In this document: positions 20,950-30,594 of the stretch, piece after piece
Numbering within the stretch: position 1 is the first letter of the stretch
Layout: the number at the start of each line of letters is the position of its first letter
Virus record (IMG/VR): IMGVR_UViG_3300031722_000014
Origin: an uncultured virus (IMG/VR IMGVR_UViG_3300031722_000014)
Taxonomy: Duplodnaviria > Heunggongvirae > Uroviricota > Caudoviricetes
Direction: 5' to 3' (one strand)
Length of the DNA stretch: 34,038 bases
The notes under the pieces: model-generated
Seen by the model: only the letters and a program-made list of their open reading frames with translations
The model's database searches: none
Told to the model about the DNA's origin: nothing
Translations under genes and position numbers: made by a program

Positions 20950-21273
20950 ATGCCAGTAAATAAACAAGCCATTACATACAGAATTATGGCAGCAGCTAAA
21001 TGTCTAGGATATGGACCAATCCAACAGACTGAATTACCAATAAGAATAACAGATGCACCAAATGCTCAGTTATTTGAAGGTCCAATAAGAATTGAAATGG
21101 GTAATGCCATTCAGTTATACATGATTGCATTTGACAGATACGATGCTAAAGCTCCAATTTATGCTAATTGGATAATAAATGTCGAACAAAAATTCAATGC
21201 AATAGACGCCAAAAAATGCTTCATTAAAGATGCATTAACACACTTACTAGACAAGAGAACAAATTTCAATTAA
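20950..21273 (+). CDS. Hypothetical protein
   Basis: Likely start MPVNKQ at 20950, right after the upstream stop. Confidence 0.65.
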   Translation: MPVNKQAITYRIMAAAKCLGYGPIQQTELPIRITDAPNAQLFEGPIRIEMGNAIQLYMIAFDRYDAKAPIYANWIINVEQKFNAIDAKKCFIKDALTHLLDKRTNFN

Positions 21274-21300
21274 TTAACAATCAAATTTTATCAAAAAGTT

Positions 21301-21789
21301 ATGAAAACAAGTATCAAAATTATCATTTTCGTAGGCTTCTTGTTTGCAATCGCAGCAACAGCCGCTCTTACTTCATGCAAACATTTGCCTTGGCAAAAAG
21401 TAGAAACCGTTGACACTGTGAAAGCAGTAGCACCTGTAATGGTTGACGCAAACCTGTATCAAATTGTAATTACACGTGCAGATTCTCTTCAAACAGAATA
21501 CTCAGTGTACGCTTATGCAACAGATAAATGGGATGCCAGTCGTATTGGAGAAACAAAGTATTTAAATAATGAGCCGGTGGGTAGTACTATTCGAATAGTA
21601 TTAATAACGCCAATCAATAGTCCATTTAAATGCCCGGAATCAATAATACAGAAAGATGTTAAGCCTGACTCAATTGTAGCCAAGTGTAAGTCGACCGGAA
21701 AGAAACATATTGAATACACCAAAGGACCTAAAAAATCAGGAAAGGGAAAAGGTGGGTGCAAATGTTTATTTGAATACAATATAGTTTAA
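21301..21789 (+). CDS. Putative lipoprotein
   Basis: Signal MKTSIKIIIFVGFLFAIAATAALTS-C; basic and Cys-rich C-terminus. Confidence 0.75.
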   Translation: MKTSIKIIIFVGFLFAIAATAALTSCKHLPWQKVETVDTVKAVAPVMVDANLYQIVITRADSLQTEYSVYAYATDKWDASRIGETKYLNNEPVGSTIRIVLITPINSPFKCPESIIQKDVKPDSIVAKCKSTGKKHIEYTKGPKKSGKGKGGCKCLFEYNIV

Positions 21790-24464: not shown

Positions 24465-25799
24465 ATGGCAACAAAATGGCAACGCTCATGCTTAGAAGCT
24501 TTAATAGAAAGCCCAGAAGCATTTAAAGTATTTAAGGCAAAACAAATAAACAGAAAGATGTTAGATCAATTTGTTTGTAAATTATGGCCTTATAAATACA
24601 AAAAGGCAAATAATATAAGGATAAAGTCTATCTCAGGAAAGAAGGAACATACTTTACAATATGTCTTTAGAGAATTAGCGAATGCAATTAATACAATTGA
24701 CTGTACGACAAACGACAACCAAGATGAAATACTATTAGGATGTCGAGATATGTATTTTAACGCAGATCAAATATATGAACAAATGTGCGAAATCGAATCA
24801 AGAGCAGAAGATAATATGTTTGATGGATGTGGAGATATGTTCTCAATTATAGCAATTGGAGAAAATGGAAGAGATGCAAAAAGAATATACGACCCAAATA
24901 GCTCAGGGCAAAGAAATATCATTACTAGAATAAAAATGCTAGCAAGCGATATAAGAGGTTCAGGAGCAGAAAGGATGCGATTCTTAGCAATAAGAAAAGA
25001 AAGTACAAACAGATCAGTTAGCGACATGCTGGCAGCTAGAGTATATTGTTTTAACACATTAATGACAATATTAGGACCAGCACCAAAAAAAGTATCGATA
25101 CTGGAAAGGAAACAAATAGAATACGATTCTGTTAACATTGGCATTGAAATAGAATACAATGGATGTAACTGTCAACCTATAGGGAAAAAATTAGCACAGT
25201 TAGAGGCTGTTGAATTTAATTCTGGATGGGATGGAGGAAGTCAAGACGGAAACGATTATAAATCAGGCACTTTGCGAGAAAACAGATTAAGAATAAAAGG
25301 ACTAAGAGGTATTAGAGCATTAAATGAATTACTAATTTATATGGTAAGAAATGGATGTGCAATTGATAATAACTCTGGACTTCACGTTCATGTTGATTGT
25401 AGAGATATGGATTTGAGAAATAACAAAAAGGATTTTTCTTACGTACTTACAGCAATGAAAGAACGGATGGCTAAAGATATGAAATCTATGAGCCAAGAGG
25501 CAAAAGATGACATAATAACAATATTAAGAATGAGCACTCACTTAAGAAGTTATAATAAATTAGCCGAAGAAATTATTCCACGAGTAAACATTCAATGTTC
25601 ATTTAAAACACTTGAATGGAGGATGTTATATCCGACATTAGTGTACGAAACAATGATGCCGCAGATTCTTTTGGTAATCCACCTTACAGAATGTGCAAAA
25701 TACAAAAACAAAAAACCTAACGAGGCATATATCCATATGCTAGGTGAAATCGTTAGAAAACAGGATAATCAAAACTTGCCAGTAAGGCAAAATTATTAA
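24465..25799 (+). CDS. Putative amidoligase (COOH-NH2 ligase, Amidoligase_2-like C-terminal domain)
   Basis: IGIEIEY, RENR, SGLHVHVD and KTLEWRM motifs, preceded by a ~220 aa N-terminal extension. Confidence 0.7.
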   Translation: MATKWQRSCLEALIESPEAFKVFKAKQINRKMLDQFVCKLWPYKYKKANNIRIKSISGKKEHTLQYVFRELANAINTIDCTTNDNQDEILLGCRDMYFNADQIYEQMCEIESRAEDNMFDGCGDMFSIIAIGENGRDAKRIYDPNSSGQRNIITRIKMLASDIRGSGAERMRFLAIRKESTNRSVSDMLAARVYCFNTLMTILGPAPKKVSILERKQIEYDSVNIGIEIEYNGCNCQPIGKKLAQLEAVEFNSGWDGGSQDGNDYKSGTLRENRLRIKGLRGIRALNELLIYMVRNGCAIDNNSGLHVHVDCRDMDLRNNKKDFSYVLTAMKERMAKDMKSMSQEAKDDIITILRMSTHLRSYNKLAEEIIPRVNIQCSFKTLEWRMLYPTLVYETMMPQILLVIHLTECAKYKNKKPNEAYIHMLGEIVRKQDNQNLPVRQNY

Positions 25800-26188
25800 T
25801 TAGTTTATACCGTGCAAACCGCTGGGCGGGGGAGAGTCTCAATGCTAAAATGCTAAGGGATGGGCAATGGGGACAGGTAATGCTGACAGCCCATGAATGA
25901 CTTATAATTAATAATTAGTCTTATAAATTTTAAAACGACACAGTAAAGTCGAAGATCAGTATCTTTTGAAGGTCTACTAAGCCTGATGGGATATGATTAT
26001 ACTCAACCTTTTTGCAAGAGGGGGCGAAGTATCACTTACTGCACAGTTTCAGTTGTTGGGAGAGTGCAGTGATTTAGTCTAAGTATACAAGGACTAGGTC
26101 GGCTAAGTTTTGATTGGTATATAATTGAAAGAAAGTGCTCTTAAGCTTTCAATTATGTGCAAACCCAAAATCATGGTAATCCATGGGA

Positions 26189-26286
26189 AGTCTATTAGCT
26201 CAGTTGGTTAGAGCGCATGAAAGTGACAAACCCGTTTTAACGGAAGGCATATCATGAAGTCGCGGGTTCGAGCCCTGTATAGACAA
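26189..26286 (+). tRNA. tRNA-like gene with a 31-nt expanded anticodon loop (no assignable anticodon)
   Basis: Acceptor GTCTAT/ATAGAC, D arm GCTC-AGTTGGTTA-GAGC, anticodon stem CATGA/TCATG enclosing 31 nt, T arm GCGGG-TTCGAGC-CCTGT. Confidence 0.75.
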
Positions 26287-26315
26287 CAATATTAACATTT
26301 ATTAATCAATAATTT

Positions 26316-26519
26316 ATGAAAAAAGCATTTAATTTATTATTTTTAATTGGGTGTGCATGCATATCTAATTTACCCGTGTTATTACTAATGTCAAATGATA
26401 TTAGTAAGACGGTTCCAAGTCAAGAGAATAGAGCAGTTATTCTTATTGCCACAATTACATTAAGCTTTATTATTAGCATTAATATTCAAAAAGTGTATAA
26501 CAAAATGAAATTAAAGTAA
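26316..26519 (+). CDS. Small two-TM membrane protein
   Basis: 67 aa with two hydrophobic stretches. Confidence 0.6.
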   Translation: MKKAFNLLFLIGCACISNLPVLLLMSNDISKTVPSQENRAVILIATITLSFIISINIQKVYNKMKLK

Positions 26520-26521
26520 TT

Positions 26522-26656
26522 ATGGGTAAAACAAAAAGATTAAAGGACAGAAATGGTGACGGAATCAAAGAAGTAGAACTAAAGGTTGTCAAAAAGAATA
26601 ATGGCCTACAAAGAGAGACTAAAATGCAACCATTCACTAAAAAGGAAAGGATTTGA
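26522..26656 (+). CDS. Small basic protein (44 aa, not in the ORF track)
   Basis: MGKTKRLKDRNGDGIKEVELKVVKKNNGLQRETKMQPFTKKERI*; fills the gap between its neighbours. Confidence 0.5.
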   Translation: MGKTKRLKDRNGDGIKEVELKVVKKNNGLQRETKMQPFTKKERI

Positions 26657-26657
26657 T

Positions 26658-27035
26658 ATGGAATGGACAAAAGAAACATTAGTAAATACATGTATTGAAG
26701 TGTCAAAAAGATACAATGGAAAGAAAATTATTAAATTCTATGAAAGTTTTGGATTTAAAAATAACCATAATCTTGTTGGAGATTCTACTATTGGATATTA
26801 TGGAATTTTAGAAGAAAACAATTCAATTATATTTCATAATATTCCATTGCTAAATGTAATCAAACTTCCTTCTAAGCCTCGTCGCAAATTTCCACGAGAA
26901 ATGATGGTATCCGAAGATGGACACGAATGGTTCAAATCAATAGTATTTGGTACCATAAAACACGAATATGGAAAATTCGTTATACGAAGAGGAAGTGATT
27001 CATTCAGAGCATTAAAATATGCAAAAGAAATTTAA
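26658..27035 (+). CDS. Hypothetical protein
   Basis: Likely start MEWTKETL at 26658; KFPREMMVSEDGHEW...KYAKEI C-terminal module. Confidence 0.7.
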   Translation: MEWTKETLVNTCIEVSKRYNGKKIIKFYESFGFKNNHNLVGDSTIGYYGILEENNSIIFHNIPLLNVIKLPSKPRRKFPREMMVSEDGHEWFKSIVFGTIKHEYGKFVIRRGSDSFRALKYAKEI

Positions 27036-27161
27036 CTCATTGCAATAGCAATTGGTGGAGTTTGTTCACTAAACCGAACAGGCCTAAGAGAATGGTTCGT
27101 ACATAAAAGGTTGTGCGCCCCATTCTCTATCATTTTAATATTAATCAATAATAAATATAAA

Positions 27162-27635
27162 GTGAAACACGAAGAAAACGAGATTTTAGATGCGCTGATC
27201 GCTCATGCTAGAACACAAGAAGAAGTACTGACTGCATTTATGGCAGCATTCCCAAAGACAGACGCCGAAAGACTGCACAAAAAGATTGGGAAAAAGTGGA
27301 ATGAATATCTAAGAAACAAAACCAACGTATCTTTACGTCATTGCGATACAAAAACATTAATAACAGTCTTAAGATCGTTAAATAATGATGTACGCGAAGC
27401 GATAATAAGAAAAGTTGAAATCAAATTGGTCAAAAAACCAAAGGTATACAAAGAGATTTATGAAGCGATGACACACAAAACAAATGCCTGGAATCAGGAT
27501 TTACAAAGAGAAAAATACGTTGAGTTAGTTAGCATATCTTCAGATGGCTATTTAATTCAGGTATGGAATGGATTAGAAATGTTTACATTTACAATCTACG
27601 ATGTGAATCAATTTTACCCGGCATTAAAACATTAA
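27162..27635 (+). CDS. Hypothetical protein
   Basis: ORF 27111..27635; the more likely start is GTG-KHEENE near 27162, after an AT-rich leader. Confidence 0.65.
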   Translation: MKHEENEILDALIAHARTQEEVLTAFMAAFPKTDAERLHKKIGKKWNEYLRNKTNVSLRHCDTKTLITVLRSLNNDVREAIIRKVEIKLVKKPKVYKEIYEAMTHKTNAWNQDLQREKYVELVSISSDGYLIQVWNGLEMFTFTIYDVNQFYPALKH

Positions 27636-27638
27636 GAA

Positions 27639-27702
27639 GTACGGTCTGTTAGGCTGTATTTATGACGAGCAAGACGGGACCTCGAAAGCCCCACCTCCAC
27701 CA
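27639..27702 (+). ncRNA. ssrA: Permuted tmRNA, acceptor piece
   Basis: Ends GAC-GGGAC-CTCGAAA-GCCC-CACCTCC-A-CCA. Upstream CGGTC, CTGTATT and GACGAGCAA pair with the coding piece. Confidence 0.85.
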
Positions 27703-27706
27703 AAAC

Positions 27707-27808
27707 TCTCATGTGCCGCAACTGAATAGCGGACCAGGCTAAGTAATTTAAAGAGCCTAATGCAAATTAGGTACCTGGAAGTTGTGGGTTTGAGCCCCAC
27801 CATGAGAG
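27707..27808 (+). tRNA. tRNA-like gene with a 35-nt expanded anticodon loop, nested in the tmRNA intervening segment
   Basis: Acceptor TCTCATG/CATGAGA, D arm CCGC/GCGG, anticodon stem CCAGG/CCTGG enclosing 35 nt, T arm GTGGG-TTTGAGC-CCCAC. Confidence 0.75.
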
Positions 27809-27822
27809 CGCTAATAAAACAC

Positions 27823-28015
27823 GGGGGTGCAAAGTATTGATTGGCGTCCGCTGAATATGGATAGGACTGCACACGCTAGATAACTGGCACAAAAACAATC
27901 CAAATCAACAATTATGTGGGCTTAATGTCTGCATAATTTAGAACGTACCTACCAGGTCAGGAGCAGAGATCATATCAAAGCCGCCTGTCTATTCAATTAG
28001 CCCTGGTAGGGTTTT
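27823..28015 (+). ncRNA. ssrA: Permuted tmRNA, coding piece; tag (A)GTKTIQINNYVGLMSA*
   Basis: Begins GGGGGTG, pairing with CACCTCC and giving G3-U70. ATAACT-GGC resume context; tag reading frame 27886-27936; 3' stem CCTACCAGG/CCTGGTAGG followed by GTTTT. Confidence 0.85.
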
Positions 28016-28110
28016 AAAACACGCCCTATATCCGACGAACAGCTTGGTCGGTCGGCAGCCTCGAGAACTGCGTAGGGAGCAATTATTAACAATTAAAATC
28101 AATTTAATTT

Positions 28111-30498: not shown

Positions 30499-30573
30499 GG
30501 TTCCTTAGCTCAGTTGGATTAGAGCAACACCCTTCTAAGGTGTGGGTCGAGAGTTCGAATCTCCCAGGGATCA
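30499..30573 (+). tRNA. tRNA-Arg (anticodon TCT)
   Basis: Canonical cloverleaf: GGTTCCT/AGGGATC acceptor, ACACC-CT-TCT-AA-GGTGT anticodon arm, TTCGAAT T loop. CCA is not encoded. Confidence 0.95.
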
Positions 30574-30594
30574 CAAATTTTAAATTCATATCAA

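What the first reader, a model, noticed from the sequence alone, without database searches (positions are those of the whole stretch)
26189..26286. tRNA bodies whose anticodon loop is replaced by a 31-35 nt insert containing a hairpin
Seen: this element has near-perfect D, T and anticodon stems, but the loop is AAGTGACAAAC-CCGTT-tt-AACGG-AAGGCATA (31 nt) and pair 1:72 is mismatched. The element at 27707 independently shows the same design: a 35-nt loop with CCTAAT-gcaa-ATTAGG. Both have AAGT at or near the loop start and TA at its end. The inserts are too short for group I/II introns and I see no clear bulge-helix-bulge. Inference: two cases with intact stems argue for selection rather than decay. 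They could be non-decoding tRNA mimics (decoys for anticodon nucleases or tRNA-sensing defences), scaffolds displaying a small RNA, or substrates for protein-mediated splicing.
Basis: partly seen in the sequence, partly recalled or inferred. Interest (0 to 1): 0.8.

Follow-up and report, generated by a model that had tools for sequence, protein, structure and literature searches.

The report
tRNA-derived cut-site modules, phage tmRNA
Two tRNA-shaped genes with blocked anticodon loops in a crAss-like phage are worn-out tRNAs: one descends from a histidine tRNA, the other sits in the spacer of a split ribosome-rescue RNA (tmRNA) gene, and both probably serve as cutting marks for tRNA-processing enzymes.

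Summary
Element 1 (26189-26286) scores 43.2 bits on the Rfam tRNA model, with 31 nt in place of the 7-nt anticodon loop. Element 2 (27707-27808) folds as a clean cloverleaf with a 35-nt loop, but the Rfam tRNA model does not match it.

- Element 2 fills the intervening segment of a circularly permuted (two-piece) tmRNA gene (27643 to about 28016). Its tag, GTKTIQINNYVGLMSA, is conserved in three distant relatives.
- All four lineages carry a tRNA-like module at that spot. The acceptor and T stems are intact and covary, while the cores differ completely (37-70 nt).
- Element 1 is the ortholog of an ordinary tRNA-His(GUG) in the closest relative (L163). It has gained 24 nt and lost U33.

So the tRNA body is conserved and the insert is not.

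Best reading (about 0.55): these are non-decoding, tRNA-derived handles that RNase P and RNase Z cut to separate neighbouring RNAs. No cleavage was shown. Rival readings are functionless cargo, spliced tRNAs, and decoys or scaffolds.

Verdict: a new variant of a known kind, of moderate interest.

The parts
25800..26171 (+). Non-coding, strongly structured region between the 444-aa gene and element 1; candidate upstream RNA whose 3' end element 1 would define
   Evidence: On the + strand no ORF exceeds 29 aa. The fold of 25800-26188 is -109.9 kcal/mol, z -3.0, and 0 of 100 shuffles fold as well. Contigs of an RNA library lie on 25777-26016 and 26085-26235 (DNA carry-over is not excluded). The sequence is not alignable with relatives.
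26172..26185 (+). Conserved hairpin CATGG-TAAT-CCATG, three bases upstream of element 1
   Evidence: Present in 4 of 4 lineages directly before the tRNA or tRNA-like element. All 20 of 20 cells are paired, and pair 16:23 changes G-C to A-U in L163. Sequence similarity between the genomes begins here.
26189..26286 (+). Element 1: tRNA-His(GUG)-derived cloverleaf. Acceptor 26189-26195 / 26279-26285 (1:72 is A/A), D arm 26198-26214, anticodon stem 26216-26220 / 26252-26256, 31-nt loop 26221-26251, T arm 26262-26278, discriminator A 26286
   Evidence: Rfam tRNA 43.2 bits. It aligns with the tRNA-His(gtg) of L163, with 24 extra nt (placed at 26228-26251) and A32 A33 in place of U32 U33.
27643..27702 (+). 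tmRNA acceptor piece (upstream half of a permuted gene): T arm with an unusual loop, acceptor 3' strand CACCTCC 27692-27698, discriminator A 27699, encoded CCA 27700-27702
   Evidence: RF04321 tmRNA_permuted matches 27643-27936 at 31.6 bits, below its gathering score of 47, E 0.0012. Homologous pieces occur in L163, L164 and L175. The same family scores 60.3 and 50.9 bits in cr50_1 and cr114_1.
27703..27706 (+). Spacer AAAC between the CCA and element 2
   Evidence: The spacer is identical (AAAC) in the window, L163 and L175, and is ATT in L164.
27707..27808 (+). Element 2: tRNA-like cloverleaf in the tmRNA intervening segment. Acceptor TCTCATG/CATGAGA, T arm GTGGG-TTTGAGC-CCCAC, 35-nt anticodon loop 27739-27773 with hairpin 27755-27772 (GCAA loop)
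   Evidence: Minimum-energy cloverleaf at -32.2 kcal/mol. ARAGORN with introns calls it. There is no Rfam tRNA match. Positional homologues occur in 3 of 3 relatives of the subclade.
27809..27822 (+). Spacer between element 2 and the tmRNA coding piece
   Evidence: The spacer is 14 nt here and 11-14 nt in the relatives.
27823..28016 (+). tmRNA coding piece: acceptor 5' strand GGGGGTG 27823-27829 (G3:U70 with 27696), tag frame 27886-27936 (GTKTIQINNYVGLMSA, stop TAA), and a long post-tag helix around 27948-28010 followed by a T run. The 3' end is inferred
   Evidence: Acceptor pairing read. Tag translation. The tag is conserved with synonymous changes in L163, L164 and L175. The post-tag helix folds with z -2.1, and two compensatory pairs (27959/27986, 27960/27985) appear in a variant contig.
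28024..28077 (+). Possible third, minimal tRNA-like junction after the tmRNA (6-bp closing stem and two hairpins, the second abutting the 3' strand, with loop CCTCGAGAA). Low confidence
   Evidence: Three-way-junction fold at -18.2 kcal/mol, but z is only -0.58. The stretch between 28019 and 28085 is replaced by TAAC in one DNA contig of run X14.

Best explanation
Both elements are tRNA-derived RNAs that have lost the ability to decode. They keep the parts of a tRNA that the host's tRNA-processing enzymes recognise: the acceptor stem stacked on the T arm, and in element 1 the D and T loops as well.

Shown:
(1) Element 2 occupies the intervening segment of a circularly permuted tmRNA gene. It starts four bases after the CCA of the acceptor piece and ends 14 bases before the 5' end of the coding piece.
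(2) Element 1 is the ortholog of a normal tRNA-His(GUG) and has gained 24 nt in its anticodon loop.
(3) In relatives the same two positions hold tRNAs or tRNA-like modules of changing identity. Their acceptor and T stems stay paired through compensatory changes, while the anticodon region is free to vary.

Inferred:
- RNase P cuts at the 5' end of each module, between 27706/27707 and between 26188/26189. At element 2 this frees the tmRNA acceptor piece with a 4-nt trailer, which exonucleases trim back to CCA. At element 1 it would leave the upstream structured RNA ending just after its conserved hairpin.
- RNase Z or a similar enzyme, together with RNase P acting on the tmRNA's own tRNA-like domain, frees the downstream RNA.
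- The enlarged, self-paired anticodon arm keeps the released roughly 100-nt RNA out of translation.

In this reading the modules are punctuation marks in a region rich in non-coding RNA. The insert itself is incidental.
For: tmRNA context:
- RF04321 matches 27643-27936.
- The acceptor helix GGGGGTG/CACCTCC has G3:U70 and an encoded CCA.
- The tags are GTKTIQINNYVGLMSA, GEKTIQINNYVGLMSA, GNNFQMRNYVGLMSA and GNIITIRNYVGQVA in the four lineages, with synonymous codon changes.
- The same family scores above its cut-off in cr50_1 (60.3 bits) and cr114_1 (50.9 bits). The cr114_1 RefSeq record annotates a tmRNA there.

Elements in the intervening segment:
- In 4 of 4 lineages of the subclade a module starts 3-4 nt after CCA. 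Acceptor stems are 7/7, 7/7, 7/7 and 6/7 paired and T stems 5/5 in all four, with different sequences. The cores are 70, 55, 38 and 37 nt with no shared sequence.
- In cr114_1 and in 3 of the 13 cr114-like loci (L170, L173, L176) the segment holds an intact tRNA-His(gtg), scoring 63.1 bits in cr114_1.
- Downstream of the coding piece, cr50_1 and cr118_1 have a tRNA with a 6-nt or shorter anticodon loop, and cr114_1 and cr52_1 have an acceptor-plus-T minihelix.

Element 1:
- It aligns with the L163 tRNA-His. The D arm and T loop are identical. Pairs 4:69, 27:43 and 28:42 are changed on both sides and still pair.
- Over four lineages 79.8% of cells are paired against 68.7% in shuffles, and 10 pairs are changed on both sides; 0 of 500 shuffles reach either value.
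- The neighbouring protein is only 31% identical, and the upstream DNA cannot be aligned before the hairpin.
- L164 has tRNA-Pro(tgg) at the same place, L175 a degenerate cloverleaf, and L182 a 126-nt tRNA-like element.

Not a decoder: element 1 has A32 A33. Element 2 would read 'Leu AAG', but it has a short variable loop and U37.

A contig from an RNA library bridges 26188/26189 and runs 15 nt into the insert. This is a weak hint that a precursor keeping the insert exists.

From established knowledge, recalled and not tested here: bacterial RNase P needs only the acceptor and T-arm minihelix. RNase P cuts separate polycistronic tRNA transcripts in E. coli. Permuted tmRNA precursors are matured by tRNA-processing enzymes (stated in passages of PMC11915505 seen).
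Against: - No cleavage site has been observed. The one RNA-library contig that covers the predicted site crosses it uncut, and it may derive from DNA.
- The tRNA in the intervening segment is not needed for tmRNA maturation in general. Among the 13 cr114-like loci with the same tag, L168 and L172 (printed; equal gene lengths) have no tRNA-like module in the segment. L171 (printed) and L178 (same gene length) carry an unrelated filler.
- For element 1 the insert could be recent. Every copy found is identical, so I cannot show selection acting after the insertion. Pair 1:72 is broken.
- The fold z-scores of the elements themselves are weak: -0.79 and -1.14, and -1.77 for each extended arm.
- Element 2 fails the Rfam tRNA model.
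Confidence: 0.55

Rival explanations
1. Functionless cargo or young pseudogenes. tRNA genes landed in permissive, non-coding, co-transcribed places (the tmRNA spacer and an intergenic leader) and then lost decoding by insertion. They are simply removed or ignored and have no role of their own.
For: Spacer content is highly variable among close relatives that share the same tmRNA. L168/L172 have no tRNA-like module, L171/L178 an unrelated filler, and L170, L173 and L176 an intact tRNA-His. The closest relative has an intact tRNA-His at the element 1 locus. Element 1 has a broken 1:72 pair. All copies of this phage are identical, so selection after the insertion cannot be shown. Earlier scan note e1-5940088 reached this reading for another phage.
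Against: In the window's subclade 4 of 4 lineages keep paired acceptor and T stems through compensatory changes, although their neighbouring proteins are only about 31-34% identical and all four cores are degenerate. Neutral DNA at that distance cannot be aligned. The 3-4-nt spacer after CCA and the hairpin before element 1 are conserved.
Confidence: 0.2
2. The tRNA body serves as a stable scaffold for the inserted hairpin. The released roughly 100-nt RNA would bind a protein, or act as a decoy for tRNA-sensing or tRNA-cutting host defences, or for SmpB, EF-Tu or a synthetase.
For: Both inserts form closed hairpins. The element 2 hairpin is capped by GCAA, and its positional homologue in L163 carries a GAAA-capped hairpin. 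The design resembles engineered tRNA scaffolds, in which the anticodon arm is replaced by a cargo RNA (recalled, not from a call).
Against: No insert sequence or hairpin is conserved across the four lineages at either locus. L163 has no insert at the element 1 locus. Neither insert recurs elsewhere in the window. Anticodon nucleases recognise the anticodon loop, which is exactly what is missing here (established knowledge, recalled).
Confidence: 0.12
3. The elements are intron-containing tRNA genes. The insert is spliced out to give working tRNAs (His-GUG from element 1).
For: In element 1 GTG and a purine stay at positions 34-37, and the 24 extra nt can be placed at the canonical 37/38 site. 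The anticodon GUG can pair with CAU at the end of the insert, as in eukaryotic pre-tRNAs. ARAGORN with introns calls both elements. In my IMG/VR sample, 56 of the 58 well-formed insert-bearing tRNA genes keep U33, 49 of them as the canonical CTTATA loop start.
Against: Element 1 would have A32 A33 after any such splice, and U33 is nearly universal. Element 1 has no bulge-helix-bulge: positions 32-35 (AAGT) do not pair with insert positions -6 to -3 (AGGC), and only 1 nt lies between the anticodon-insert helix and the stem. At 24-28 nt the inserts are far too short for group I or II introns. Element 2 as 'Leu(AAG)' lacks the long variable arm of bacterial tRNA-Leu and has U37. RtcB, RNA ligase and tRNA-intron endonuclease were found in 0 of 4 partial records of this phage, with controls positive. 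An RNA-library contig keeps the start of the insert.
Confidence: 0.08

Closest known systems
Permuted (two-piece) tmRNA genes with a tRNA in the intervening sequence
   Same: The gene order is acceptor piece, spacer, coding piece. The precursor is cut by tRNA-processing enzymes. PMC11915505 (passages seen) reports one permuted tmRNA, in a nominally archaeal MAG, with an intact tRNA-Ala in its intervening sequence and calls it a unique feature.
   Different: Here the host is a crAss-like phage. The spacer element is degenerate and non-decoding (35-nt loop), and it recurs at the same place in four distant phage lineages. The window's tmRNA has an unusual T loop and scores below the Rfam cut-off (31.6 against 47).
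tRNA-like processing signals: MALAT1 mascRNA, mitochondrial tRNA punctuation, plant mitochondrial t-elements, gammaherpesvirus tRNA-miRNA units (recalled from memory; no call)
   Same: A tRNA-shaped fold with no decoding role recruits RNase P and/or RNase Z to define the ends of neighbouring RNAs.
   Different: Those cases are eukaryotic or organellar. This one would be in a bacteriophage, next to a tmRNA, and its cleavage is not demonstrated.
Ordinary phage tRNA-His(GUG) gene
   Same: Element 1 shares its flanks, acceptor, D arm, T arm and the GTG triplet with the tRNA-His of relative L163. tRNA-His(gtg) also occurs in the tmRNA spacer of cr114_1-like phages.
   Different: Element 1 has a 31-nt loop, A32 A33 and an A/A pair at 1:72, so it cannot decode as it stands.
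Intron-containing tRNAs of archaea, eukaryotes and giant viruses
   Same: The insert lies in the anticodon loop at or next to position 37/38.
   Different: There is no bulge-helix-bulge. Element 1 lacks U33. No splicing enzymes were found. The host is presumably bacterial.
   Same: A degenerate, anticodon-less tRNA look-alike in the spacer of a phage two-piece tmRNA gene.
   Different: It concerns other DNA. That note says its closest relatives lack the insert; here all four lineages of the subclade keep one.

Membership tests
tRNA (Rfam RF00005) | Covariance-model score at or above the gathering score (29 bits) | tested here: inconclusive
   Element 1 passes at 43.2 bits. Element 2 fails: no match at E<=10 when searched alone.
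tRNA (Rfam RF00005) | Four-stem cloverleaf | tested here: met
   Element 1 by the model alignment. Element 2 by its minimum-energy fold.
tRNA (Rfam RF00005) | 7-nt anticodon loop with U33 and a purine at 37 | tested here: not met
   The loops are 31 and 35 nt. Element 1 begins A32 A33. Element 2 begins C32 U33 but has U at 37.
tRNA (Rfam RF00005) | Aminoacylation and a CCA end | not testable with these tools
   CCA is not encoded after either element: element 1 is followed by A-CAA and element 2 by G-CGC.
Protein-spliced tRNA introns (bulge-helix-bulge type) | Two 3-nt bulges separated by a 4-bp helix at the exon-intron borders | tested here: not met
   In element 1, positions 32-35 (AAGT) cannot pair with insert positions -6 to -3 (AGGC); the fold has a 2x1 internal loop and a 3-bp helix instead. 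In element 2 the 5' side of the loop is 16 unpaired nt.
Protein-spliced tRNA introns (bulge-helix-bulge type) | Splicing endonuclease and ligase available | tested here: not met
   PF01974, PF01139 and PF09414 were found in 0 of 4 partial records (29-63% complete) of this phage, with controls positive. Host enzymes were not examined.
Group I / group II intron in tRNA | Intron of hundreds of nt with a catalytic core | tested here: not met
   The extra sequence is 24-28 nt. No intron family appears in the Rfam scans.
Permuted tmRNA (Rfam RF04321) | Score at or above the gathering score (47 bits) | tested here: not met
   31.6 bits, E 0.0012 in the window. Relatives cr50_1 (60.3 bits) and cr114_1 (50.9 bits) pass. 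ARAGORN does not call the window's gene.
Permuted tmRNA (Rfam RF04321) | Acceptor helix formed between the two pieces, with G3:U70 and a 3' CCA | tested here: met
   GGGGGTG (27823-27829) pairs with CACCTCC (27692-27698), giving G3:U70, followed by A and CCA. The same holds in L163, L164 and L175.
Permuted tmRNA (Rfam RF04321) | Tag reading frame ending in a hydrophobic or Ala tail, conserved at the protein level | tested here: met
   The tags end in ...NYVGLMSA in 3 of 4 lineages, with synonymous codon changes between lineages, and in ...NYVGQVA in the fourth. The resume codon is inferred from the shared ATAA-NN-GG context.
Permuted tmRNA (Rfam RF04321) | Canonical T arm | tested here: inconclusive
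   The relatives have 5-bp stems with 8-nt loops (TAGCATAT or CAGCATAT) instead of the TTCGA type. The window has only about 3 clear pairs around CCTCGAAAG.
tRNA-like RNase P/Z processing elements | Acceptor stem stacked on a T arm, conserved where the anticodon region is not | tested here: met
   Four lineages at the tmRNA spacer and four at the element 1 locus.
tRNA-like RNase P/Z processing elements | Cleavage at the 5' and 3' borders in vivo or in vitro | not testable with these tools
   Only assembled contigs of one RNA library were available, and these cannot show RNA ends.

The most novel reading that the evidence does not exclude
Peat and gut crAss-like (Suoliviridae-type) phages may use tRNA-derived cassettes as a modular processing grammar. 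The cassettes range from full tRNAs through cloverleafs with plugged anticodon arms to bare acceptor-plus-T minihelices. With them the phage would build its own two-piece tmRNA, carrying a non-host tag, and neighbouring structured RNAs out of one transcript. On this reading the plugged anticodon arm is an adaptation. It lets RNase P and RNase Z cut the module while keeping it off the ribosome and invisible to anticodon nucleases. The released stable tRNA-shaped RNAs would then act as effectors, for example by titrating SmpB, EF-Tu, a synthetase or a tRNA-sensing defence.
Probability: 0.12. Interest if true: 0.8.

Novelty: new variant of a known kind. Interest (0 to 1): 0.55.

Why it matters
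- Annotation: these elements should not be counted as phage tRNAs, as tRNA pseudogenes, or as hidden suppressor tRNAs.
- tmRNA: a two-piece tmRNA with its own tag turns out to be a conserved feature of a branch of crAss-like phages. It is annotated in one RefSeq record, but I found it discussed in no paper I could search.
- Testable system: if RNase P or RNase Z cutting is confirmed, this would be a bacterial-virus counterpart of mitochondrial tRNA punctuation and of MALAT1/mascRNA. It would also be a natural analogue of the engineered tRNA scaffold.
- tRNA evolution: the tRNA-His to element 1 comparison shows a tRNA gene caught in transition from decoder to structural module.

Tried and rejected
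Searches for variant copies that gave nothing new:
- blastn of 25800-28100 against the phage collection: no match.
- The nearest held virus record, G001, lacks this region and has no tRNA hit.
- An exact-pattern scan of IMG/VR and the protein-based locus search found only 100%-identical copies: L001-L006.
- A degenerate pattern for the tmRNA coding piece found only the same four lineages in IMG/VR (6 loci). In the JGI metagenomes it found two contigs identical to the window. Variation within elements 1 and 2 is therefore unavailable.

RNA evidence: one metatranscriptome run (X24, Logan contigs) put contigs only on 25777-26016 and 26085-26235, plus a 36-nt piece with 6 mismatches. The tmRNA and element 2 had no cover, which proves nothing, and contigs cannot show RNA ends.

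Ideas considered and dropped:
- K-turn or sarcin-ricin readings of 'AAGT...TA': the required GA/AG pairs are absent, by eye.
- The inserts as small mobile repeats: neither recurs in the window, even with 3 mismatches allowed.
- ARAGORN's 'tRNA-Val(gac) with 5-nt intron' fold of element 1: it breaks the D stem and invents a long variable arm.
- The sigma-70 promoter and terminator scan was uninformative: 12 promoter-like sites against 11.5 expected.

Literature: six searches in all, on crAss + tmRNA, two-piece tmRNA + phage, crAss-like + tRNA-like, RAGATH + tRNA + phage, and two broader queries. I read passages of PMC11915505, PMC4131195, PMC12291355, PMC13503771 and bioRxiv 10.64898/2026.08.21.746148. 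None describes tRNA-like modules in crAss-phage tmRNA genes. The one supplement of PMC11915505 held as text had no hit for crAss, phage or uncultured, so I could not check whether its 79 phage tmRNAs include these.

Full report
WHAT THE WINDOW IS

The window belongs to a crAss-like phage. Its major head protein, portal and large terminase match PHROGs families at E 1e-136 to 1e-160. By tblastn the head protein is 72-79% identical to uncultured crAss phages cr118_1, cr50_1, cr114_1 and others, which are all classed as Crassvirales, Suoliviridae. The family assignment of this phage is my inference from those identities.

The public runs that hold this stretch are labelled peat metagenomes. Every other copy I could fetch is 100% identical over 25780-28110 or more. 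That covers three IMG/VR contigs and two JGI metagenome contigs.

THE OBSERVATION

Element 1 (26189-26286, + strand) is matched by the Rfam tRNA model over all 71 positions at 43.2 bits (gathering score 29). It has 31 nt where the model has the 7-nt anticodon loop, and pair 1:72 is non-standard.

Element 2 really runs 27707-27807, with discriminator G at 27808.
- Its minimum-energy fold is a complete cloverleaf at -32.2 kcal/mol.
- The fold has a 35-nt loop holding a 7-bp hairpin capped by GCAA.
- ARAGORN calls both elements only when introns are allowed.
- In 100 dinucleotide-preserving shuffles of the window that mode made 3 calls, all with 76-1277-nt 'introns'.
- Rfam's tRNA model does not match element 2 even when it is searched alone.

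So both elements are real. Element 1 is a strong tRNA look-alike and element 2 a looser one.

ELEMENT 2 LIES INSIDE A PERMUTED tmRNA GENE

A permissive Rfam scan gave a sub-threshold match to tmRNA_permuted (RF04321) over 27643-27936: 31.6 bits, cut-off 47, E 0.0012. Reading the sequence shows the following.
- The upstream piece ends ...CACCTCC-A-CCA at 27692-27702.
- The downstream piece begins GGGGGTG at 27823-27829.
- These two strands form a 7-bp acceptor helix with the G3:U70 pair typical of tmRNA.
- A tag frame at 27886-27936 encodes GTKTIQINNYVGLMSA.

Three distant relatives were found through the neighbouring 444-aa protein. They are L163, L164 and L175, at 31-34% protein identity. They carry the same gene, with tags GEKTIQINNYVGLMSA, GNNFQMRNYVGLMSA and GNIITIRNYVGQVA. 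The codons differ synonymously, so the frame is under protein-level selection.

In RefSeq relatives the same Rfam family passes its cut-off: cr50_1 at 60.3 bits and cr114_1 at 50.9 bits. cr52_1 reaches 41.3 bits. The cr114_1 record already annotates a tmRNA there. ARAGORN calls permuted tmRNAs in 18 of the 26 relative loci.

Element 2 therefore occupies the intervening segment. It starts 4 nt (AAAC) after the CCA and ends 14 nt before the coding piece.

WHAT RELATIVES HAVE AT THAT SPOT

In all four lineages of the subclade a module starts 3-4 nt after CCA (AAAC three times, ATT once).

| Lineage | Acceptor stem (5'/3') | Paired | T stem (5'/3') | Paired | Core length |
|---|---|---|---|---|---|
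| window | TCTCATG/CATGAGA | 7/7 | GTGGG/CCCAC | 5/5 | 70 nt |
| L163 | TACTATG/CATAGTA | 7/7 | GCGGG/CCCGT | 5/5 | 55 nt |
| L175 | TACTATT/AATGGTA | 7/7 | ACCAG/CTGGT | 5/5 | 38 nt |
| L164 | CGGATAG/CTATCCA | 6/7 | TAGGG/CCCTA | 5/5 | 37 nt |

The cores share no sequence. L175 is nearly a tRNA but has two mismatches in its anticodon stem. L163 has no clear D arm and carries a GAAA-capped hairpin.

In the cr114_1 group the segment holds different things in different genomes.
- An intact tRNA-His(gtg) in cr114_1 (63.1 bits) and in L170, L173 and L176.
- A different structured filler in others.
- Nothing tRNA-like in L168 and L172.

After the coding piece, cr50_1 and cr118_1 have a tRNA with a 6-nt or shorter anticodon loop, and cr114_1 and cr52_1 have an acceptor-plus-T minihelix.

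In short, tRNA-shaped modules of many grades flank the tmRNA pieces across this phage branch. The constant part is the acceptor/T-arm unit.

ELEMENT 1 IS A FORMER tRNA-His

The 444-aa gene (24465-25799) is followed in relatives by 200-420 nt of non-coding DNA and then a tRNA or tRNA-like element.
- L163: tRNA-His(gtg).
- L164: tRNA-Pro(tgg).
- L175: a degenerate cloverleaf.
- L182: a 126-nt tRNA-like element.
- cr114_1 group: a tRNA-like fold with a hairpin in its D loop.

Nucleotide similarity between the window and these genomes begins only about 20 nt before the element. It starts at a hairpin (26172-26185, CATGG-TAAT-CCATG) that is present in 4 of 4 lineages and covaries in L163 (CATAG/CTATG).

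The alignment with L163 shows the following.
- The D arm and T loop are identical.
- Pairs 4:69, 27:43 and 28:42 are changed on both sides and still pair.
- The loop reads TTGTGGT in L163 and AAGTGAC plus 24 extra nt in the window.

The GTG anticodon and a purine at 37 remain, but U32 U33 have become A A. Over the four lineages 79.8% of cells pair against 68.7% in shuffles, and 10 pairs changed on both sides. In both measures 0 of 500 shuffles reach the observed value. Sliding the partners by 1-3 columns drops pairing to 24-48%. With only four sequences, two of them poorly aligned, I treat this as supporting evidence and not as proof.

WHY THESE ARE NOT SPLICED tRNAs

- A splice at 37/38 of element 1 would leave A33.
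- Element 1 has no bulge-helix-bulge. Positions 32-35 (AAGT) cannot pair with the insert's -6 to -3 (AGGC). The predicted arm is a near-continuous extension in which GUG pairs with CAU.
- The inserts are an order of magnitude too short for self-splicing introns.
- Element 2 read as 'Leu(AAG)' has a 5-nt variable loop and U37, unlike bacterial tRNA-Leu (established knowledge).
- RtcB, RNA ligase and the tRNA-intron endonuclease were found in 0 of 4 partial records of this phage, with positive controls. The records are only 29-63% complete, and host enzymes were not examined.
Of those, 49 keep the canonical CTTATA loop start of intron-bearing tRNA-Ile, 7 others keep U33 and 2 do not. The 34 sequences that failed my stem criteria were dropped from that count. 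Ordinary viral tRNA introns thus look different from element 1.

MECHANISM PROPOSED

Shown: the position of both elements, the ancestry of element 1, and the pattern of conservation (acceptor, T arm and, for element 1, the D and T loops are kept while the anticodon region drifts).

Inferred: the modules are kept as handles for the host's tRNA-processing enzymes.
- RNase P would cut at 27706/27707. This leaves the tmRNA acceptor piece with a 4-nt trailer that exonucleases trim back to CCA.
- RNase P would also cut at 26188/26189, leaving the upstream RNA ending just after its conserved hairpin. That upstream RNA is 389 nt, has no + strand ORF over 29 aa, and folds with z -3.0.
- 3' cuts near 26286 and 27808, together with RNase P acting on the tmRNA's own tRNA-like domain at 27823, would free the downstream RNAs.

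Two points rest on recalled knowledge and were not tested here: that bacterial RNase P needs only the acceptor/T minihelix, and that it separates polycistronic tRNA transcripts. That permuted tmRNA precursors are cut by tRNA-processing enzymes is stated in PMC11915505 (passages).

EVIDENCE AGAINST, AND LIMITS

- No RNA end has been seen.
- The only RNA-library data are assembled contigs of one run. One contig (26085-26235) crosses the predicted cut at 26188/26189 and reaches 15 nt into the insert. This fits a precursor or contaminating DNA.
- L168 and L172 show that a tmRNA of this kind can do without a tRNA-like spacer. Within the window's own subclade, however, all four lineages keep the module.
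- For element 1 I cannot show that selection continued after the insertion.
- Fold z-scores of the elements alone are unremarkable.

COMPARISON WITH WHAT IS KNOWN

- Two-piece tmRNAs are well known in Alphaproteobacteria, Betaproteobacteria and Cyanobacteria.
- Phage tmRNAs are known mainly from mycobacteriophages and Bacillus phage G (PMC4131195, passages). A 2025 database paper lists 79 phage sequences and reports a single permuted tmRNA with an intact tRNA in its spacer as unique (PMC11915505, passages).
- tRNA-like processing signals are known from mitochondria, MALAT1/mascRNA and a gammaherpesvirus (recalled).
- I found no paper on tRNA-like modules in crAss-phage tmRNA genes in six searches.
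- A 2026 preprint on a Crassvirales genus mentions low-scoring 'ambiguous tRNA-like structures' without analysis (bioRxiv 10.64898/2026.08.21.746148, passages).

VERDICT

The decisive context was missed: a phage two-piece tmRNA and a tRNA-His ancestor. I class this as a new variant of a known kind, with interest 0.55.

Noticed in passing
window 27643-28016: A permuted (two-piece) tmRNA gene with tag GTKTIQINNYVGLMSA. ARAGORN misses it and it scores below Rfam's cut-off. Its T loop is non-canonical (CCTCGAAAG; TAGCATAT or CAGCATAT in relatives). The tag tail differs from the ...RIAA and ...RLVA tails of the cr114-like phages.
   Followed up: yes
window 25800-26188: A 389-nt non-coding region with an unusually stable predicted fold (z -3.0, 0 of 100 shuffles) and several long perfect hairpins. 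Contigs of an RNA library lie on 25777-26016 and 26085-26235. It matches no Rfam family and cannot be aligned with relatives.
   Followed up: partly
window 24465-25799: The 444-aa protein upstream has a weak, sub-threshold match to Pfam Amidoligase_2 (E 0.002). It has invariant NxGIExEY, SGxDG and SxxHxH motifs across 14 homologues. It is syntenic with the non-coding RNA and tmRNA region in all relatives examined.
   Followed up: partly
window 27948-28085: One DNA contig of run X14 (depth about 5) carries a variant. Changes 27959 A>G with 27986 T>C, and 27960 G>T with 27985 C>A, keep two pairs of the post-tag helix. The stretch between 28019 and 28085 is replaced by TAAC, which removes a small three-way-junction element.
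   Followed up: partly
L030 879-1045; L031 2108-2275 (- strand); L032 2116-2218 (- strand): RAGATH-22, RAGATH-9 and RAGATH-20 RNAs (Rfam, all above their cut-offs) lie 300-450 nt upstream of the permuted tmRNA in cr50_1, cr114_1 and cr52_1. The window has no such match.
   Followed up: no
L030 1898-1968; L033 1401-1466 (- strand); L031 and L032 downstream of the tmRNA stop: Directly after the tmRNA coding piece, cr50_1 and cr118_1 have tRNA-like genes with a 6-nt or shorter anticodon loop. cr114_1 and cr52_1 have an acceptor-plus-T-arm minihelix.
   Followed up: partly
L167, L166, L179 (tmRNA intervening segment): Other cr114-like phages fill the tmRNA spacer with a T-arm-like hairpin (GTTCG-TTCGACT-CGAAC) followed by a domain closed by a covarying 7-bp helix (GCAACTT/AAGTTGC against GCAGCTC/GAGCTGC). 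Its nature is unknown.
   Followed up: no
L159 2578-2945 (cr114_1 21077-21444, - strand): A further 368-nt non-coding gap in cr114_1, closed by GACGAC...GTCGTC. It may be another structured RNA of this region.
   Followed up: no
L039-L158 (IMG/VR): Many viral contigs carry tRNA genes with 30-56-nt inserts in the anticodon loop. Most in this sample are tRNA-Ile(TAT) with canonical loop starts, several on contigs whose names mark giant-virus bins. Some sequences that failed my stem filter also lack U33: one recurrent form on contigs from a single metagenome has its loop beginning AAAGTCC, and another begins TAACAGA.
   Followed up: partly
L007, L008 (cr118_1, cr50_1): The major head protein gene of these relatives is annotated in two pieces. 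In cr50_1 an HNH endonuclease gene lies between them, which suggests an intron. The window's gene is uninterrupted.
   Followed up: no
window 30499-30574: An ordinary tRNA-Arg(TCT), 59.1 bits. It is the only canonical tRNA in the window.
   Followed up: yes
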